A model generated the notes under the pieces. The model was not told where the DNA came from and did not search any database. It saw only the letters and a program-made list of their open reading frames with translations. A stretch of 11,725 nucleotides of DNA from a virus: the UHGV virus genome UHGV-0243446. One strand, 5' to 3'. Shown here one piece after another: positions 1-10,049 of the stretch. The stretch's first letter is position 1. Each line of letters opens with the position of its first letter. Both the position numbers and the translations under genes were made by a program.

Positions 1-1032
<1,032 letters not shown>

Positions 1033-1476: not shown

Positions 1477-1890
1477 TCACTTTCCTTTTCCCTGAAGCAT
1501 TGCGGCGCGGCAGGCGTTCCAGCCTCTCACCTCTGCAATAGCTGCAACAGCATCAACCGCGTACATGCTAAGAGGGTTAGGCATTGGTTTTTCTTCCGGT
1601 ACTACTGGAACGGGTGGAGTGGCGTAGACCTCAATAATTCCATTATCAATAGGCCATTCCCCATCCTTGATGTAGTCACTTGTGCCATCGACCTGCTGTT
1701 CTGCAATGTGGAAAGCACCTATTGGTTTTGCTTCCAGCGATGCCAGCGTAATTTCGGCCAGCTTGAGGTGAATAACCGCTGCATCAGAAGCGCCCGGGAC
1801 TCTTTCCACCGCAACGCGAAGAACCTCAATATTCTTCTTAGCCTGCTCAATCAACTGCTCTTTGGTGAACTCTTTGGTAATAGTGGTCAT
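1477..1890 (-). CDS. Hypothetical protein (137 aa), paralogous module to the 124-1032 product
   Basis: ATG at 1890 with TGAGG RBS. Starts MTTIT and contains YATPPVPV, like the 302-aa protein. Confidence 0.6.
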   Translation of the reverse strand: MTTITKEFTKEQLIEQAKKNIEVLRVAVERVPGASDAAVIHLKLAEITLASLEAKPIGAFHIAEQQVDGTSDYIKDGEWPIDNGIIEVYATPPVPVVPEEKPMPNPLSMYAVDAVAAIAEVRGWNACRAAMLQGKGK

Positions 1891-1900
1891 TTGTTATGCC

Positions 1901-2098
1901 TCAATACACAAAATCTGTTTTAAATTCATGGTTACATTCTGGACAGCATGTTTCGTAATCTTTTATTTCTTCACATGCCTGTTTTGCTCCAGAAAATTCC
2001 CAGAAATCAGCATCGCAAAGCAGATCGAAATTGTGGCCGCATTTGGGGCATTCGGTATCAAGTGACAGACTCCAGTAAGCAGGTGTGTTTTTGTCCAT
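1901..2098 (-). CDS. Small zinc-ribbon-like protein (65 aa)
   Basis: ATG about 2098 preceded by AAGGAGAG, immediately after the TGA of the upstream gene (the track's longer ORF to 2179 would overlap that gene). Two Cys pairs: CPKC and CCPEC. Confidence 0.5.
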   Translation of the reverse strand: MDKNTPAYWSLSLDTECPKCGHNFDLLCDADFWEFSGAKQACEEIKDYETCCPECNHEFKTDFVY

Positions 2099-2099
2099 C

Positions 2100-2747
2100 T
2101 CACTCTCCTTTGATGCGAATGCCAGCGGCGCGTGGCACATTAACTTCCACGATGCGCACAGTTGGTTTGTACATCTCAATTGCTGTCAGCCAGTCAGCTC
2201 CTGTCATGCGCTTTTCCGCATCGCCATTAGTCCACTGAACCGGTACACCAATAGCCTTCATCGCGATTTCTATTTCCCCGGCAATGGCGCTTTTTCCGCA
2301 ACCAGTAAAACCAGAAACAACGACAAGAACTTCACCTTTGGCTGGTTTTATTTCCCGTGCTTCCAGTTCTGCAATACGCTTACTCCCATCCGAGATAACA
2401 CCTTCGTAATACTCGCGTTGCTCGTTGAGTTTTGATTTTGCTTCCTCAAGCTCAACACGCAGCTTCCCTACCGTTAGCGCAATATCCTCGTTCTCCTGGT
2501 CGCGGCGTTTGATGTATTGCTGGTTTCTTTCCAGCTCATCCAGCAGCGCCCGAACTACATCAGCGGTTTTCTGGCACTGGTCAACAATGCTAACGTCACA
2601 ACCAGTATCGAAACCGTCCTCAGTTTCAAAGCGGAGCTCTACAGAGTCGCCGTCGATATCAGATGGTTCGAACCCGGCAATGTTTTCCAGAATGCCGATT
2701 ATGCTTTCTGCGCTATGACGTAATGCGCGTTTATCGATGTTGCTCAT
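2100..2747 (-). CDS. Coiled-coil accessory protein (215 aa), possibly Ea22-like, with C-terminal GxxxxGKS motif
   Basis: ATG at 2747 overlaps the upstream stop (ATGA). Central charged heptad-like region (ELEEAKSKLNEQREYYE...AELEAR). C-terminal GFTGCGKS matches the Walker A pattern. The Ea22-like assignment is from memory and weak. Confidence 0.55.
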   Translation of the reverse strand: MSNIDKRALRHSAESIIGILENIAGFEPSDIDGDSVELRFETEDGFDTGCDVSIVDQCQKTADVVRALLDELERNQQYIKRRDQENEDIALTVGKLRVELEEAKSKLNEQREYYEGVISDGSKRIAELEAREIKPAKGEVLVVVSGFTGCGKSAIAGEIEIAMKAIGVPVQWTNGDAEKRMTGADWLTAIEMYKPTVRIVEVNVPRAAGIRIKGE

Positions 2748-3262
2748 GACCGCACTCCTTTGCGAAGCTGGGAAGCAAAGTCAACTAACCACTCAGTCAT
2801 TTCAACCTTCCCTACCAGGTCTGAACCAGGGTGCATACAGCAATCACTCTGCGCCGCTTTGAAATCCTTATACTCATATTCTTGGGCCACCAGATTTTTT
2901 GCAGCTTCTATAGCAGCATCCACGCCCTGCGCTCGTACTTCAGCCAGGAAAGCATCGGTGGCTGGGGTGTCTGATTGCAGAAACTTTGCGCGATAGTCAT
3001 TCCACCCTCTTGCATACATGGGATTAACTTGCACTCCATCTTTTACGCAATATGCCTGCCCTCCACGGTTGATAACCTTGATTTCGTCCATAGCGCCAGA
3101 CTTCGGCCCCGCATTCTCCGCTGCCAGCGCCGCGCACTTGGCCTCAGCTTCAGCAAATTTACGCACCATATATTCAGCATTTGTTTCGTTAACCTTTAAA
3201 TCACATGAGATGCATTTACCTTTCAGAAATCCATCCATCTCAATTAGTGTCATTCGTTTCAT
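2744..3262 (-). CDS. Hypothetical protein (about 172 aa)
   Basis: Track ORF begins with GTG at 3280. An ATG about 3262 overlaps the upstream stop as ATGA, suggesting translational coupling. No recognisable domain. Confidence 0.5.
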
Positions 3263-3423
3263 TTCTTCCCACTCCGCCACATCGCATTCAGATATTTGTT
3301 TTGATTCACTGACGGAGAAGAATTTCTCTTAAGCAATTCCTCTCTCGATGGCATTGGCTTTACGCGTTGGCGAATAATCATTTCTTCCGGAAGAATGCCG
3401 GGATTGTATGCAAGTCCTCTCAT
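3259..3423 (-). CDS. Hypothetical small protein (about 54 aa)
   Basis: The track's 105-aa ORF (to 3576) overlaps the 3434-3730 gene by over 140 nt. An internal ATG about 3423 has a GAGGAA RBS 6 nt upstream and follows the upstream stop. Confidence 0.4.
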
Positions 3424-3433
3424 GGTAAATTCC

Positions 3434-3730
3434 TCAGTCATTACTGATAGCGCCATAGCGTGAGCGGTAATTACGCAGGCGCGGGTCGATATATTCAGGG
3501 AAGTGGGTATATGTGGCTTTGCGGAATGGTCGGATTGATGTCTGGTAAATTCGCTCGCGTTCTTCTTTCTCTGCAAGCCATATACAGTGGCGAAATTCCT
3601 TTTCCTCTTTCGTTTCCTGCGGTAGCGACATTATCCGATCGTAGTTTTTTCTGAATTTATCCAGCACCTCCGATACGGAATTGCCGGAACAGCGGCGCGC
3701 GTCATCCGCACCATACAAAGGCGCTGGCAT
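3434..3730 (-). CDS. Hypothetical basic protein (98 aa)
   Basis: ATG at 3730 with AGGAG RBS 6 nt upstream; directly follows the SSB stop. Confidence 0.55.
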
Positions 3731-3743
3731 GTTTTTCTCCTGA

Positions 3744-4250
3744 TTAAATTGCGTGAATAGCGTGACGAGGGAAGGGGAGAGTTACTGGTGCAAAGGGTAT
3801 ATCGTCGTCAAAATCCATCGGAGGTTCGTTGTGTTGTGCTGGTGATGATTGCTGCTGTGGCTTCTGTGATTGCCTGCTGGCTGCTTGTTGTTTGCTGTCG
3901 CCAATGCCGCCAAGCATTTGCATCACGCCATTAATTCCGACATGAACCTCGGTTGTGTAACGGTCTTGCCCTGACTGGTCTTTCCACTTTCTGGTTCTCA
4001 GCATTCCCTCGAAATAAATCTGATCACCTTTTTTCACATACCGCCCAACGACCTCAGCCAGTTTCCCGGATACAGCAACACGATGCCATTCAGTCAATTC
4101 CTTTTGCTCGCCAGTATTTTTATCTCGCCATTGTTCTGACGTGGCTATTGTCAGGTTAGCGAACGCTGTTCCTGATGGTGAGTATCGAACTTCCGGGTCT
4201 TGTCCTACCCGACCAAGGATAATCACCTTATTTACGCCTCTGCTTGCCAT
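3744..4250 (-). CDS. ssb: Single-stranded DNA-binding protein (SSB) with C-terminal extension
   Basis: N-terminus [13 protein letters not shown]...DPEVRY...TEWHRV...[11 protein letters not shown] closely resembles E. coli SSB, followed by a Gln/Ser-rich tail and [10 protein letters not shown]. The ORF then continues 15 codons ([15 protein letters not shown]) before the stop. Confidence 0.9.
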
Positions 4251-4958
4251 TTATGCCGCCTGTTTTAGTTCGTTAACTCTGATGTTCATTACCTGAACGC
4301 ATTTAGCCTGCGCCTCCTCGTTGCCAGCCATTAATTGCCAGTCACGCTGATAACGCTCGATGAGTTTTTTCTTGTCAGTTTCTGTTGACGCATAATCGCT
4401 GAAGTCTTTCAGGATTTGTTCGCAGTCAACCGATGGAGATTTCTGGTTGGTATTTTCTGGTGATGGTTTGTTATCTGATGCTGGGATTGCCCATCCCGGC
4501 AGCGATGGAGGAAGCCAGTAAAATCCTGTTCCATCCTTCAGTTTTGCCCTGTGCCACCCCTGCTTTTTATCGAGAGATGTTTGTGCGAAACCTTCCTCAA
4601 GGTTATACAGATACCGACCGATTCCCCATTGAACGGCAGCACGCTTCATTGCACCGGAACGACCACCTTTGACGGCTTCTACCTGCGTGTTTTCAGCAGC
4701 ATCCCATTTGGTTACCCATTCGGAATCAATCCTGATTGATATGCCGCATTCAACGCCTCCGTTGTTGGGAATATCGCGGTATTCATTGCGCCATCCTGCT
4801 TTGCCGCAAACATCGTCCAGGCGTTTCATGATTGCCCGGTTCGTGACATAAGCCAGCACCATAGCCCACACTTTGCCATCGCGTGTTTTACCGCTTTGCT
4901 GTATTCGCCATTCGATATCTTCAGGGCTGAATGGCTCATCGAATTTGTTCAAATCCAT
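4251..4958 (-). CDS. Rad52/Rad22-family single-strand annealing protein (phage recombinase)
   Basis: ATG at 4958 with GAGGTGA RBS. Core region (KWDAAENTQVEAVKGGRSGAMKRAAVQWGIGRYLY) resembles the conserved Rad52 annealing fold. Sits immediately upstream of ssb (TAAATG junction). Confidence 0.65.
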   Translation of the reverse strand: MDLNKFDEPFSPEDIEWRIQQSGKTRDGKVWAMVLAYVTNRAIMKRLDDVCGKAGWRNEYRDIPNNGGVECGISIRIDSEWVTKWDAAENTQVEAVKGGRSGAMKRAAVQWGIGRYLYNLEEGFAQTSLDKKQGWHRAKLKDGTGFYWLPPSLPGWAIPASDNKPSPENTNQKSPSVDCEQILKDFSDYASTETDKKKLIERYQRDWQLMAGNEEAQAKCVQVMNIRVNELKQAA

Positions 4959-6238: not shown

Positions 6239-6439
6239 TCAGGCAGCCTTGTTATTCTGTTTACCAAGTTCTCTGGCAATCATTGCCGTCGTTCGTATTG
6301 CCCATTTATCGACATATTTCCCATCTTCCATTACAGGAAACATTTCTTCAGGCTTAACCATGCATTCCGATTGCAGCTTGCATCCATTGCATCGCTTGAA
6401 TTGTCCACACCATTGATTTTTATCAATAGTCGTAGTCAT
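6239..6439 (-). CDS. ral: Ral-like restriction-alleviation protein (66 aa)
   Basis: 66 aa, the same size as lambda Ral. Its start is overlapped by 17 nt by a 28-aa ORF, which matches the lambda orf28/ral arrangement as I recall it. Product MTTTIDKNQWCGQFKRCNGCKLQSEC... Confidence 0.55.
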   Translation of the reverse strand: MTTTIDKNQWCGQFKRCNGCKLQSECMVKPEEMFPVMEDGKYVDKWAIRTTAMIARELGKQNNKAA

Positions 6440-7185: not shown

Positions 7186-7575
7186 TTAGTCAGCGAAGGT
7201 TAAGACGAGAATTACCTTAATGATGTCTGCTACAACAGACACGGCCATAGATAAACCAAAGACAATCCAAGCCATAGAGATGTCTTCACTACCATCGTAT
7301 AGAGTTCCGTAATCACTGGTGTAAGGCGTAAATGTCGCGCCTTGATACAACAGGTATAAGCTTGAACCATAGAGGATAAATGCAGATATCCCTTGTATTG
7401 CTATGATCACCAGAATCATGAAACGAGCTGATCTATGCGCCCAAGCCTGGCTTATTTTTTCTGATAGAGATTTCGCAATAAAAGCATGCGCTAAGCCGTA
7501 AATTGTCGAGATTTCCAACATCCCCAAAAAGCTTGCTATAGCGGTTCCAACCATAATCGCCCCTTGCGTGATCAA
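7186..7575 (-). CDS. Small polytopic membrane protein (3 predicted TM helices) in the rex/immunity-region position
   Basis: Track ORF begins with TTG overlapping the cI stop. An ATG about 7554 with AAGGGG RBS is likely the real start (about 122 aa). Three hydrophobic segments of about 22-25 residues. Downstream of cI on the same strand, as rexAB is in lambda. Confidence 0.6.
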   Translation of the reverse strand: MITQGAIMVGTAIASFLGMLEISTIYGLAHAFIAKSLSEKISQAWAHRSARFMILVIIAIQGISAFILYGSSLYLLYQGATFTPYTSDYGTLYDGSEDISMAWIVFGLSMAVSVVADIIKVILVLTFAD

Positions 7576-9010: not shown

Positions 9011-9172
9011 ATGACAAAACGTCGTAAGAAATACCAGGAAAAAGAAGAGATTCGACACCCTGATTCACCTGAGGGATTAGTGGTAGCCGCAGCAAATAAC
9101 AGGGCGTTCGCAGAGCGCCTTGTTGGTGTTTACAGACTAGCCAAAGCAGGAGTGAAGCATGGGCGTCGTTAA
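9011..9172 (+). CDS. Hypothetical small basic protein (53 aa) between cII and the replication initiator
   Basis: ATG about 9011 with AGGAG RBS about 6 nt upstream; its stop overlaps the start of the downstream O-like ORF. The track's longer version begins with TTG at 8966 inside cII. Confidence 0.35.
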   Translation: MTKRRKKYQEKEEIRHPDSPEGLVVAAANNRAFAERLVGVYRLAKAGVKHGRR

Positions 9173-10049
9173 GTTAGCTGATTACAGGCATAACCCTGTA
9201 CAACATCAGGAGGCATCCAGTATGGGGTATGTCTCTATACACCGCCAGTTTATGGACAGCAGGCTCTATAAGGACTCTCAGGCAGTACATCTTTGGCTTC
9301 ACTTAATCCTCAAGGCTAATCACGAATCTACTGTCGTCAATACGGATATCGGTCCGATAACTGTTGATCGCGGTCAGATGATAACTGGACGCCCGTCGCT
9401 GGTCAGAGAAACATTCATCCCCGACAACAAAGTTCGGAGCTTATTACGGACTTTTGAGTCGAAAGGGATGCTTAATATTTGCTCGATGGGGAAGAAATTT
9501 AGCCTGTTTACAATCGTTAAATATGACGATTTTCAGGCAAAAAATTGTCCAACGGTTGTCCAACGGTTGTCCAACGCAAACACCAGTAATGGCGCGGCTC
9601 TCAGCGGAGATTGTCCAACGGTTGTCCAACGGTTGTCCATAAACAATAATATAAATAATATCTCTAATACTGACGTATTAGAGAGTGCCACAGCAGACAA
9701 AAAGTCTGACAAGAAAAAACCTTCCGTCAGCTGTCAGGATGTTGTCGATGCTTACCACGAAATCCTTCCTGAAGCGCCAAGAATCCGCGCACTGAATGAC
9801 AAGCGTAAAAACCAGATCCGAACGTTCTGGCGCAAAGCCGGAGTGATAACCCGCCAGCTTGACGGGCATGGGTTCACGATGCAGGACTGGAGAAATTATT
9901 TGAGCTACGTAGGCGAAAATTGCCGATGGATGTTCGAAGAACGCCCAAACCATCAACGCGGAACCGTCTGGCACAAAAAGGGATTTGATTTCCTGCTTAA
10001 CGACAATACCTACCTGAAAGTTCGTGAGGGTGAACACGATGACCGATAA
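9159..10049 (+). CDS. Replication initiator (lambda O-like / replisome organiser) containing the origin iterons
   Basis: Sits in the O position and is translationally coupled to the helicase. Iterons and an AT-rich tract lie inside the coding sequence, as ori-lambda lies inside O. An alternative start at ATG 9222 has a strong AGGAGG RBS. Confidence 0.7.
   Translation: MGVVKLADYRHNPVQHQEASSMGYVSIHRQFMDSRLYKDSQAVHLWLHLILKANHESTVVNTDIGPITVDRGQMITGRPSLVRETFIPDNKVRSLLRTFESKGMLNICSMGKKFSLFTIVKYDDFQAKNCPTVVQRLSNANTSNGAALSGDCPTVVQRLSINNNINNISNTDVLESATADKKSDKKKPSVSCQDVVDAYHEILPEAPRIRALNDKRKNQIRTFWRKAGVITRQLDGHGFTMQDWRNYLSYVGENCRWMFEERPNHQRGTVWHKKGFDFLLNDNTYLKVREGEHDDR
9545..9643. repeat. Phage replication origin iterons: six copies of an 11-bp repeat TTGTCCAACGG in two triplets
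   Basis: Copies at 9545-9577 and 9611-9643 with 11-bp register. Followed by an AT-rich tract (9641-9665) and a 9-bp inverted repeat CTCTAATAC-TGAC-GTATTAGAG (about 9660-9685). Confidence 0.75.

What the first reader, a model, noticed from the sequence alone, without database searches (positions are those of the whole stretch)
2100..2747. Coiled-coil protein with a short C-terminal domain carrying a Walker-A-like GFTGCGKS motif
The 215-aa protein has an acidic N-region, a charged coiled-coil segment and a roughly 75-aa C-terminal region containing GxxxxGKS. That region is too short for a canonical P-loop NTPase, so it may be a degenerate nucleotide-binding motif or a novel mini-domain. My tentative Ea22-like assignment is from memory only.
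Basis: partly seen in the sequence, partly recalled or inferred. Interest (0 to 1): 0.5.

Follow-up and report, generated by a model that had tools for sequence, protein, structure and literature searches.

The report
Ea22-like phage protein, mini P-loop tail
This is an early gene of a lambda/P22-type prophage from the known Ea22 family, but its usual tail domain is replaced by a widespread, undescribed 70-residue module that looks like the phosphate-binding core of a nucleotide kinase cut down to less than half the normal size.

Summary
Window 2100-2747 (- strand) encodes a 215-aa protein, identical to RefSeq WP_059229496.1. It has an acidic head (residues 1-60), a coiled coil (61-130) and a C-terminal region carrying GFTGCGKS (146-153).

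The C-terminal domain is not lambda's. It is a discrete module of about 68 residues (138-205), found in at least 446 protein clusters. It occurs fused to many unrelated heads, inside jumbo-phage proteins, and as stand-alone 70-90-aa phage proteins.

GxxxxGKS is essentially invariant across the family, down to 35% identity, as is a strand ending in Glu (VRIVE) where a Walker B would sit. Selection is strongly purifying (pN/pS 0.05). Profile comparisons hit only P-loop NTPases, always in the beta1-Walker A-alpha1 register (E. coli CysC, 96% probability). No curated family threshold is passed.

Two AlphaFold monomer models (pLDDT 81-83) show the expected helices but no beta-sheet, and match no solved structure. 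So P-loop ancestry is likely, the fold is unconfirmed, and ligand binding is inferred. The function is unknown. My best guess is an oligomer-dependent phosphate/nucleotide-binding unit on the Ea22 scaffold.

The parts
2100..2747 (-). Complete CDS of the Ea22-like protein (215 aa plus TGA stop)
   Evidence: Exact match to WP_059229496.1. Pfam Ead_Ea22 E=2.1e-26.
2568..2747 (-). Variable acidic N-terminal head (residues 1-60)
   Evidence: pI 4.1, with 14 D+E against 5 K+R. It is replaced by at least 14 unrelated heads in phage loci that carry the same C-terminal module. It is absent from the best complete E. coli genome matches, which start at nt 180 of the gene.
2358..2567 (-). Ea22 coiled-coil segment (residues 61-130)
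   Evidence: Nearly identical to the lambda Ea22 central region. It lies within the Pfam Ead_Ea22 match. The literature describes this region as the coiled coil of a tetrameric protein (PMC10834534).
2133..2336 (-). Conserved mini P-loop module core (residues 138-205: GEVLVVVSGFTGCGKSAIAGEIEIAMKAIGVPVQWTNGDAEKRMTGADWLTAIEMYKPTVRIVEVNVP)
   Evidence: Found in 446 clusters at 50% identity. Alignments are. hhalign to a jumbo-phage copy covers 69 columns. pN/pS is 0.05. phrog_11761 E=7e-36.
2289..2312 (-). Walker-A motif GFTGCGKS (residues 146-153)
   Evidence: Read directly from the sequence. G146, G151, K152 and S153 are invariant in A3. The motif is present in 82 of 82 divergent homologues and is retained in jumbo-phage copies.
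2145..2159 (-). Candidate Walker-B-like strand end VRIVE (residues 197-201, Glu201)
   Evidence: E201 is conserved in at least 90% of sequences in A3. It is retained as VRVCE, VRVVE and VVLSE in the most divergent copies. The Walker-B role is inferred.
2096..2126 (-). Conserved gene-junction sequence GCTGGCATTCGCATCAAAGGAGAGTGAGATG. It encodes the tail AGIRIKGE, the stop codon, the Shine-Dalgarno sequence and the ATG of the next gene.
   Evidence: Identical in the window, lambda ea22 and P1-like JL22 ra22 through the TGA stop. The start region differs: lambda reads GATCG and has no ATG there, and JL22 reads TATGG. In lambda the DNA on both sides of the junction is unrelated to the window.
2744..3280 (-). 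Upstream co-transcribed gene (178 aa, phrog_614, function unknown), translationally coupled through ATGA
   Evidence: It is the commonest upstream neighbour, but in only 21 of 75 loci.
1901..2098 (-). Downstream 65-aa zinc-ribbon ORF (MDKNTPAYW..., two CxxC pairs), starting 1 nt after the Ea22-like stop
   Evidence: Pfam gives weak zinc-ribbon hits, and phrog_4173 matches.

Best explanation
The gene encodes an Ea22-family protein of the leftward early operon of a lambda/P22-type prophage. Ea22 proteins are mosaic: a variable head, a conserved oligomerising coiled coil, and an exchangeable C-terminal domain. In this protein the C-terminal domain is a portable, autonomously folding module of about 68 residues, with predicted order beta1 - Walker A - alpha1 - beta2 - alpha2 - beta3. 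It keeps a perfect Walker A (GxxGxGKS) and a hydrophobic strand ending in an invariant Glu (a Walker-B-like feature). This corresponds to roughly the first half of a P-loop kinase domain, and the closest sequence match is adenylyl-sulfate kinase.

I propose that the module is a minimal phosphate- or nucleotide-binding unit. It would become competent only as an oligomer, brought together here by the Ea22 coiled coil and by self-association in the stand-alone forms. In this view it is the ligand-binding end of the Ea22 scaffold.

Shown: the gene, the domain boundaries, Ea22 membership, the C-terminal domain swap, the module's wide distribution, motif invariance, purifying selection, and sequence similarity restricted to P-loop NTPases. 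Inferred: the beta strands and the fold, ligand binding, the need for oligomerisation, and any role in the lysis-lysogeny decision.
For: Ea22 identity: Pfam PF13935 E=2.1e-26; the coiled coil is nearly identical to lambda Ea22; the gene lies downstream of Ral, an annealase, SSB and Abc2 on the same strand.

C-terminal domain swap: BLASTP and hhalign show no relation to the lambda C-terminal domain (probability 0.3%) apart from the last 8 residues. A shared junction of about 30 nt is flanked by unrelated DNA.

Discrete module: it occurs in 446 clusters, placed at the C-terminus, the N-terminus or internally. Stand-alone 70-90-aa proteins start at beta1. The jumbo-phage copy aligns over 69 columns and no further.

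P-loop character: Walker A is invariant. hhalign to E. coli CysC gives probability 96% and score 54, against a maximum of 20 for 100 shuffles. Of the 50 PDB sequences matched at E<=1, nearly all are P-loop NTPases in the same register, including the engineered 'phosphate-loop protein' 6c2u and a de novo ATPase. Sub-threshold Pfam and NCBIfam hits are to APS kinase, gluconokinase, MinD/Mrp and AAA families. AlphaFold places helices exactly where alpha1 and alpha2 are expected.

Functional constraint: pN/pS is 0.05 over 44 alleles.

Precedent: engineered beta-(P-loop)-alpha polypeptides of about 40-110 aa bind NTPs, polyphosphate and ssDNA as oligomers (bioRxiv 10.1101/2020.07.30.228619). Lambda Ea22 is tetrameric with a dimeric C-terminal domain (PMC10834534).
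Against: No curated P-loop family threshold is passed: the best is APS_kinase at 14.5 bits against a cut-off of 21.1. With the eight Walker-A residues masked, the CysC score falls to the level of the best shuffle (20.2 against 20.1). The significant similarity is therefore beta1 plus the motif, and descent specifically from APS kinase is not established.

The module lacks strands 4-5, the lid and any base-binding elements of real kinases.

The whole module is highly conserved (59-66% mean column identity), so conservation of the motif is not uniquely high. Ea22 proteins with unrelated C-terminal domains share a pro-lysogenic phenotype (PMC7093339), so the C-terminal domain may not carry the family's core function. 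No ligand, partner or phenotype is known for this module.
Confidence: 0.5

Rival explanations
1. The module descends from a P-loop NTPase but no longer binds nucleotides. It acts purely as a dimerisation or host-protein-docking domain, like the other exchangeable Ea22 C-terminal domains, and the GKS loop is kept for structural or interface reasons.
For: [quoted passage not shown] The module lacks more than half of the NTPase core. The helix after the P-loop (SAIAGEIEIA) is as conserved as the motif itself in most members, which suggests an interface. AlphaFold does not recover a P-loop sandwich.
Against: In the most divergent copies the helix acidic residues E158 and E160 are lost, but GxxGxGKS and the hhhhE strand end are kept. 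This is the pattern expected for phosphate/Mg binding, not for an interface. Relict P-loops usually lose the Lys or Ser/Thr, and here they are invariant across at least 230 sequences.
Confidence: 0.25
2. The Walker-A match is convergent or fortuitous. The module is a new small fold unrelated to P-loop NTPases, with some other function.
For: The AlphaFold models have no beta-sheet and no structural neighbour, P-loop or otherwise. Similarity beyond the motif is at background level. All database hits are below curated thresholds.
Against: The motif with its preceding hydrophobic run is expected in only 0.015% of shuffles. It sits between a fully hydrophobic segment and a predicted helix, as in genuine P-loops. 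Nearly all of the 50 weak PDB hits are P-loop NTPases in one register. A conserved hhhhE lies where Walker B would be.
Confidence: 0.13
3. The module mimics the N-terminal half of a host P-loop kinase such as CysC. It would act as a poison subunit or decoy that binds that enzyme or its partners.
For: The best single match is to APS kinase, including the (D/N)GD position and the start of alpha2. Phage early proteins often act by mimicry (general knowledge). One stand-alone homologue lies three genes from a PAPS-reductase-family gene.
Against: Similarity outside the Walker A is marginal. The module occurs in phages of very different hosts with the same conserved residues. The PAPS-reductase neighbour is absent from the other contexts examined. 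There is no direct evidence of any partner.
Confidence: 0.07

Closest known systems
Lambda Ea22 (UniProt P03756; C-terminal domain structure PDB 8DSX) and the Pfam Ead/Ea22-like family PF13935
   Same: The coiled-coil segment is nearly identical, the last 8 residues and the gene junction are the same, the three-part architecture (head, coiled coil, exchangeable C-terminal domain) is the same, and both sit in an early-operon accessory region (PMC10834534).
   Different: The head is unrelated. The C-terminal domain core is unrelated to the lambda C-terminal domain (hhalign probability 0.3%). It is also not among the published Stx-phage variants V1, V2 (DUF551) or V3, none of which is described as having a Walker motif.
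P-loop kinases, especially adenylyl-sulfate kinase CysC (Pfam PF01583)
   Same: The hydrophobic beta1, GxSGSGKS-type Walker A, amphipathic alpha1, beta2 followed by (D/N)GD, and the start of alpha2 all align without gaps over 40-51 columns (33-35% identity, hhalign probability 96%).
   Different: The module is about 68 residues against about 175-200 for the kinase. It has no strands 4-5, lid or substrate-binding helices. It scores below the family cut-off, and similarity outside the Walker A is marginal.
Engineered P-loop prototypes (the 'phosphate-loop protein' PDB 6c2u/6c2v, and 40-residue beta-(P-loop)-alpha polypeptides)
   Same: Both are very short polypeptides built around beta-(P-loop)-alpha. 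The module profile hits 6c2u at E=0.008. The prototypes work only as oligomers, which fits a module mounted on a coiled coil.
   Different: The prototypes are laboratory constructs derived from consensus sequences. The module is a natural, strongly selected phage protein family, and its binding activity is untested.
PHROG families phrog_250 and phrog_11761
   Same: The protein matches phrog_250 at E=2e-63, and its C-terminal domain matches phrog_11761 at E=7e-36.
   Different: Both families are annotated 'unknown function', so they add no functional information.

Membership tests
Ead/Ea22-like family (Pfam PF13935) | Match to the family HMM above the gathering threshold | tested here: met
   93.6 bits against a cut-off of 27, E=2.1e-26, residues 2-129 matching profile positions 1-139.
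Ead/Ea22-like family (Pfam PF13935) | Central coiled-coil region homologous to lambda Ea22 | tested here: met
   BLASTP against lambda Ea22 gives E=4e-42. Residues 67-128 are almost identical.
Ead/Ea22-like family (Pfam PF13935) | Location in the early leftward operon, distal to the recombination genes (an exo-xis-type accessory region) | tested here: met
   The gene is on the same strand as, and downstream of, Ral, a Rad52-type annealase, SSB and Abc2. The integrase end is outside the window.
Ead/Ea22-like family (Pfam PF13935) | Lambda-type C-terminal domain (8DSX fold) | tested here: not met
   hhalign of the module profile against the lambda C-terminal domain gives probability 0.3%. This feature is not required for family membership, since the published Stx variants also lack it.
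Ead/Ea22-like family (Pfam PF13935) | Tetrameric assembly and pro-lysogenic phenotype | not testable with these tools
   Known only for lambda, P27, 933W and Phi24B Ea22 (PMC10834534, PMC7093339).
P-loop NTPase superfamily | Walker A GxxxxGK[ST] between a hydrophobic strand and a helix | tested here: met
   GFTGCGKS at residues 146-153 follows EVLVVVS. AlphaFold places a helix at 152-165. The motif is invariant in homologues.
P-loop NTPase superfamily | Walker B (hhhhD/E) on a strand next to beta1 | tested here: inconclusive
   VRIVE carries the conserved Glu201. Its spatial position is unknown because no sheet was modelled.
P-loop NTPase superfamily | Three-layer alpha/beta/alpha core with at least 5 strands (domain of roughly 130 aa or more) | tested here: not met
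   The module is about 68-75 aa in every context, including stand-alone proteins of 69-90 aa.
P-loop NTPase superfamily | Structural similarity of the model to solved P-loop proteins | tested here: not met
P-loop NTPase superfamily | Nucleotide binding or hydrolysis | not testable with these tools
   Requires biochemistry.
Adenylyl-sulfate kinase (PF01583 / NCBIfam NF003013) | HMM score above the curated cut-off over the full kinase domain | tested here: not met
   Pfam gives 14.5 bits against 21.1, covering only profile positions 3-40 of 152. NCBIfam gives 16 bits against 163.
Known anti-phage defence proteins (PADLOC-DB) | Match to any defence-system model | tested here: not met
   No hits at E<=0.1 for this protein or its four neighbours.

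The most novel reading that the evidence does not exclude
The module is a natural, autonomously functional P-loop protein of about 70 residues, with Walker A and Walker B within 56 residues. That is far smaller than any characterised P-loop NTPase domain I am aware of. It would bind nucleotides or nucleotide-derived signals only as an oligomer, making it a living counterpart of the engineered 'P-loop prototypes'. Phages would deploy it early in infection, alone or on scaffolds such as Ea22, to sense or sequester a host nucleotide, for example an immune second messenger or an alarmone.
Probability: 0.2. Interest if true: 0.8.

Novelty: new variant of a known kind. Interest (0 to 1): 0.55.

Why it matters
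Ea22 is one of the few lambda-region proteins shown to bias the lysis-lysogeny decision, and its mechanism is unknown. The published work treats the exchangeable C-terminal domains as the likely source of functional differences, but describes only the lambda and Stx-phage variants. This variant gives that scaffold its first C-terminal domain with a recognisable biochemical handle: an invariant Lys/Ser P-loop that can be mutated and assayed.

Separately, the module is a widespread family that is uncharacterised in the libraries searched (at least 446 clusters, including stand-alone 70-aa proteins and jumbo-phage copies). If it really binds nucleotides, it would be a natural test case for how small a functional P-loop unit can be, a question so far addressed only with engineered polypeptides.

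Tried and rejected
- Direct PDB sequence search with the full protein gave nothing significant.
- NCBIfam and Pfam on the C-terminal domain gave only sub-threshold P-loop hits, and no family covers the module.
- PADLOC defence models gave no hit.
- Specific descent from APS kinase could not be established, because masking the Walker A reduces the score to shuffle level.
- I searched for a conserved partner gene in 79 enterobacterial viral loci and 3 distant contexts. There is none: at least 24 upstream and at least 29 downstream gene families. The PAPS-reductase neighbour in one context appears coincidental.
- A full NTPase domain hidden in the longer jumbo-phage proteins was not found.
- A literature search for natural mini P-loop proteins, or for a Walker motif in Ea22, found nothing in the held library.
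- The + strand ORFs overlapping the locus (2085-2435, 2425-2718, 2517-2723) were set aside as antisense artefacts, given the conservation and the pN/pS of the - strand frame.

Full report
**1. The observation**

Window 2100-2747 on the - strand is an ATG-initiated ORF of 215 codons ending in TGA at 2100-2102. An AAAGGAG Shine-Dalgarno lies 7 nt upstream, and the ATG overlaps the stop of the upstream ORF (ATGA), as expected for a translationally coupled operon gene. The exact protein is in public databases as WP_059229496.1, 'ead/Ea22-like family protein', from Escherichia albertii and E. coli.

Residues 1-60 are acidic (14 D+E against 5 K+R, pI 4.1). Residues 61-130 are highly charged, with a heptad register. 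Residues 131-215 contain GFTGCGKS at 146-153, which is nt 2289-2312. GxxxxGK[ST] appears in 0.8% of shuffles of this protein, and in 0.015% if a preceding hydrophobic run is also required.

**2. Ea22 identity**

Residues 2-129 match Pfam Ead_Ea22 (PF13935) at E=2.1e-26, scoring 93.6 bits against a gathering score of 27. The segment from about residue 67 to 128 is almost identical to lambda Ea22. The gene lies in a leftward operon downstream of Ral, a Rad52-type annealase, SSB and Abc2. The cI-like repressor, Cro, CII, a replication initiator and DnaB lie to the right. So this is the early-left accessory region of a lambda/P22-type prophage.

The literature describes Ea22 as a short variable N-terminus, a central coiled coil and a C-terminal domain. 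[quoted passage not shown] The phenotype is pro-lysogenic, and the mosaic C-terminal domains differ between lambda and the Stx-phage variants V1, V2 (DUF551) and V3 (PMC10834534; PMC7093339; PMC8614690). None of these papers mentions a Walker or P-loop motif.

**3. The C-terminal domain is a swapped-in, portable module**

Against lambda Ea22, similarity stops at the end of the coiled coil and resumes only for the last eight residues, AGIRIKGE. A profile of the C-terminal domain has no relation to the lambda C-terminal domain (hhalign probability 0.3%).

At the DNA level, a junction of about 30 nt (GCTGGCATTCGCATCAAAGGAGAGTGA...) is identical in the window, lambda and the P1-like phage JL22. 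In lambda it is flanked by unrelated sequence on both sides.

Searching with the C-terminal domain alone gave the following.
- There are 613 proteins in the 90%-clustered collection. The top 120 are E. coli/Salmonella 'ead/Ea22-like' proteins, at least 97% identical, all carrying GFTGCGKS.
- There are 446 representative clusters at 50% identity, 350 of them at E<=1e-10.
- In the 150 best representatives the module is C-terminal in 133 cases, N-terminal in 14 and internal in 8. Only 29 of the 150 carry an Ead_Ea22 region, and no Pfam family covers the module.
- The partners are mosaic, linker-rich phage proteins, including ones from high-GC hosts.
- A second search seeded from a divergent member found 82 more proteins. 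Many are stand-alone products of 69-90 aa that begin exactly at the first strand.
- Two of these were traced to phage contexts. One is in a Mesorhizobium prophage, between the RecT/Lar-type genes and the integrase. The other is among small early genes beside DNA polymerase A and a primase-polymerase (Prim-Pol) gene.
- In GenBank phages the module occurs in phiV10-like and P1-like coliphages and in BcepC6B. At 35-40% identity it also occurs inside 347-421-aa proteins of the roughly 225-kb Ralstonia/Burkholderia jumbo phages and in a 119-aa ORF of a Serratia phage. In the jumbo-phage protein the match spans the whole module (69 columns, probability 97%) and nothing more.
- In 79 enterobacterial viral contigs the module is 97-100% identical. 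The host proteins have 44 different lengths and at least 14 unrelated heads, and the flanking genes fall into at least 24 upstream and at least 29 downstream families. There is therefore no conserved partner gene.
- Selection on the module is strongly purifying (pN/pS 0.05 over 44 distinct alleles).

**4. Is it a P-loop?**

Evidence in favour:
- G146, G151, K152 and S153 are invariant, and G149 nearly so, across all alignments. All 82 divergent homologues carry GxxxxGKS.
- The most divergent copies keep GRTGVGKS or GPVGSGKS and the strand end hhhhE (VRVCE, VVLSE), although they have lost the conserved acidic residues of the following helix.
- The motif follows an entirely hydrophobic segment and precedes a helix that AlphaFold predicts at residues 152-165.
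- A profile of the module aligns to E. coli CysC over 40-51 ungapped columns: beta1, Walker A, alpha1, beta2, the (D/N)GD position and the start of alpha2. Probability is 96% and score 54, against a maximum of 20 for 100 shuffled CysC sequences.
- Against all PDB sequences, nearly all of the 50 hits at E<=1 are P-loop NTPases in the same register. They include UvrA, deoxynucleoside, gluconate, shikimate and cytidylate kinases, NSF, ABC ATPases, the engineered 'phosphate-loop protein' 6c2u and a de novo designed ATPase.

Evidence against:
- No curated threshold is reached.
- Masking the eight Walker-A residues of CysC lowers the score to 20.2, the level of the best shuffle, so specific descent from APS kinase is not shown.
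- The module has fewer than half the residues of a P-loop domain.
- The published experience with the lambda C-terminal domain warns that such predictions are construct-dependent and that the domain is dimeric. A monomer model may therefore be the wrong test, but as it stands the fold is unconfirmed.

**5. Most likely mechanism**

The constant element across hundreds of architectures is the 68-residue unit itself, and it also exists alone. It must therefore carry its own activity. The residues conserved to the limit of detection are the ones that bind phosphate and Mg in P-loop proteins.

The predicted element order, beta1 - P-loop - alpha1 - beta2 - alpha2 - beta3(E), corresponds to the first three strands of a kinase-type P-loop sheet. 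That leaves the beta1 edge free, which invites pairing between subunits (inference). Engineered polypeptides containing a single beta-(P-loop)-alpha element bind NTPs, polyphosphate and ssDNA, but only as oligomers.

I therefore propose an oligomer-dependent phosphate- or nucleotide-binding unit. In this protein it would be presented in multiple copies by the Ea22 coiled coil. Catalysis is possible but less likely, given the missing lid and substrate elements. How this would feed into the pro-lysogenic effect of Ea22 is unknown. Ea22 proteins with unrelated C-terminal domains share that phenotype, so the C-terminal domain may modulate the family's core role without defining it.

**6. Comparison and novelty**

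Membership of the Ead/Ea22 family is established. Membership of the P-loop NTPase superfamily is likely by sequence, but it fails the size and core criterion and the structural test, so I describe the module as P-loop-like and P-loop-derived, not as an NTPase.

The gene is already catalogued as 'ead/Ea22-like'. What is new is the recognition that its C-terminal domain is a distinct, widespread mini P-loop module. That module has no Pfam or NCBIfam family and falls only in PHROGs of unknown function. It is absent from the Ea22 literature I could search, and it has stand-alone and jumbo-phage members. I rate this a new variant of a known kind, with moderate interest, and higher interest if nucleotide binding by a natural 70-residue unit is confirmed.

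Noticed in passing
window 2096-2126 (- strand); L001 about 3530-3560; L002 about 3605-3640: A junction of about 30 nt, GCTGGCATTCGCATCAAAGGAGAGTGA(G/T)AT, is identical in this prophage, lambda and P1-like JL22. It encodes the tail ...AGIRIKGE, the stop codon and the Shine-Dalgarno sequence for the next gene. In the window and JL22 it is followed at once by that gene's ATG; lambda has GATCG there instead. This probably explains the conserved '+GE' C-terminal tripeptide of Ea22 proteins, which PMC7093339 describes as of unknown significance. It could also serve as a recombination linker for C-terminal domain cassette exchange.
   Followed up: partly
window 2744-2765 (- strand): The upstream gene also ends ...RKGVRS, with its AAA GGA G codons forming the Shine-Dalgarno sequence for the Ea22-like gene, and its stop overlaps the ATG (ATGA). 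A Lys-Gly near the C-terminus thus recurs as a by-product of embedded ribosome-binding sites in this operon.
   Followed up: no
window 1901-2098 (- strand): A 65-aa zinc-ribbon ORF (MDKNTPAYW..., with CPKC and CPEC pairs) starts 1 nt after the Ea22-like stop. The mechanical ORF list extends it to a TTG at 2179 (92 aa), overlapping the Ea22-like gene, which is probably wrong. It matches phrog_4173, of unknown function.
   Followed up: partly
window 9533-9650: Two blocks of three tandem 11-bp repeats (TTGTCCAACGG), 66 bp apart, lie inside the replication-initiator gene 9159-10049. These are probably the origin iterons, and they produce the repeated peptide CPTVVQRLS in the protein.
   Followed up: partly
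window 124-1032 and 1477-1890 (- strand): Two neighbouring ORFs share an 'MTTIT.K' head and a 'YA(A/T)PPVPV' linker. The longer one ends in DUF551, the domain of the Ea22 V2 variant. The same 'LYAAPP' linker motif occurs in high-GC fusion partners of the mini P-loop module (P0206), which suggests a common module-joining linker in these mosaic early proteins.
   Followed up: no
window 7186-7575 (- strand): A 129-aa hydrophobic ORF lies immediately downstream of, and overlapping, the cI-like repressor gene. It has no Pfam match. Its position is that of a prophage-expressed exclusion or Rex-like gene.
   Followed up: no
window 3434-4958 (- strand): The recombination module combines a P22-type Abc2 anti-RecBCD protein with an SSB and a Rad52/Rad22-family annealase, in place of Erf or Beta. 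A Ral antirestriction gene lies at 6239-6439.
   Followed up: no
L010 4179-6243 and L011 4182-6243: In one metagenomic prophage context, a stand-alone 80-aa homologue of the APS-kinase-like module lies three genes downstream of a PAPS-reductase-family gene. This was not seen in the other contexts, so it is probably coincidental.
   Followed up: partly
L092 2012-3274; L094 1012-2052; L093 1462-1821: Jumbo phages of Ralstonia and Burkholderia (RSF1, RSL2, FLC, SURPRISE13) carry the module inside otherwise unannotated 347-421-aa proteins, and Serratia phage KpHz_2 carries it in a 119-aa ORF. So the module is not restricted to temperate phages.
   Followed up: partly
E. coli complete genomes: No complete E. 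coli genome in the collection contains this exact combination of head, coiled coil and C-terminal domain. The best matches cover only nt 180-648 of the gene at about 95-96% identity, for example in a prophage of the O104:H4 outbreak strains. The acidic head seen here is a rarer allele, also found in viral contig L013.
   Followed up: partly
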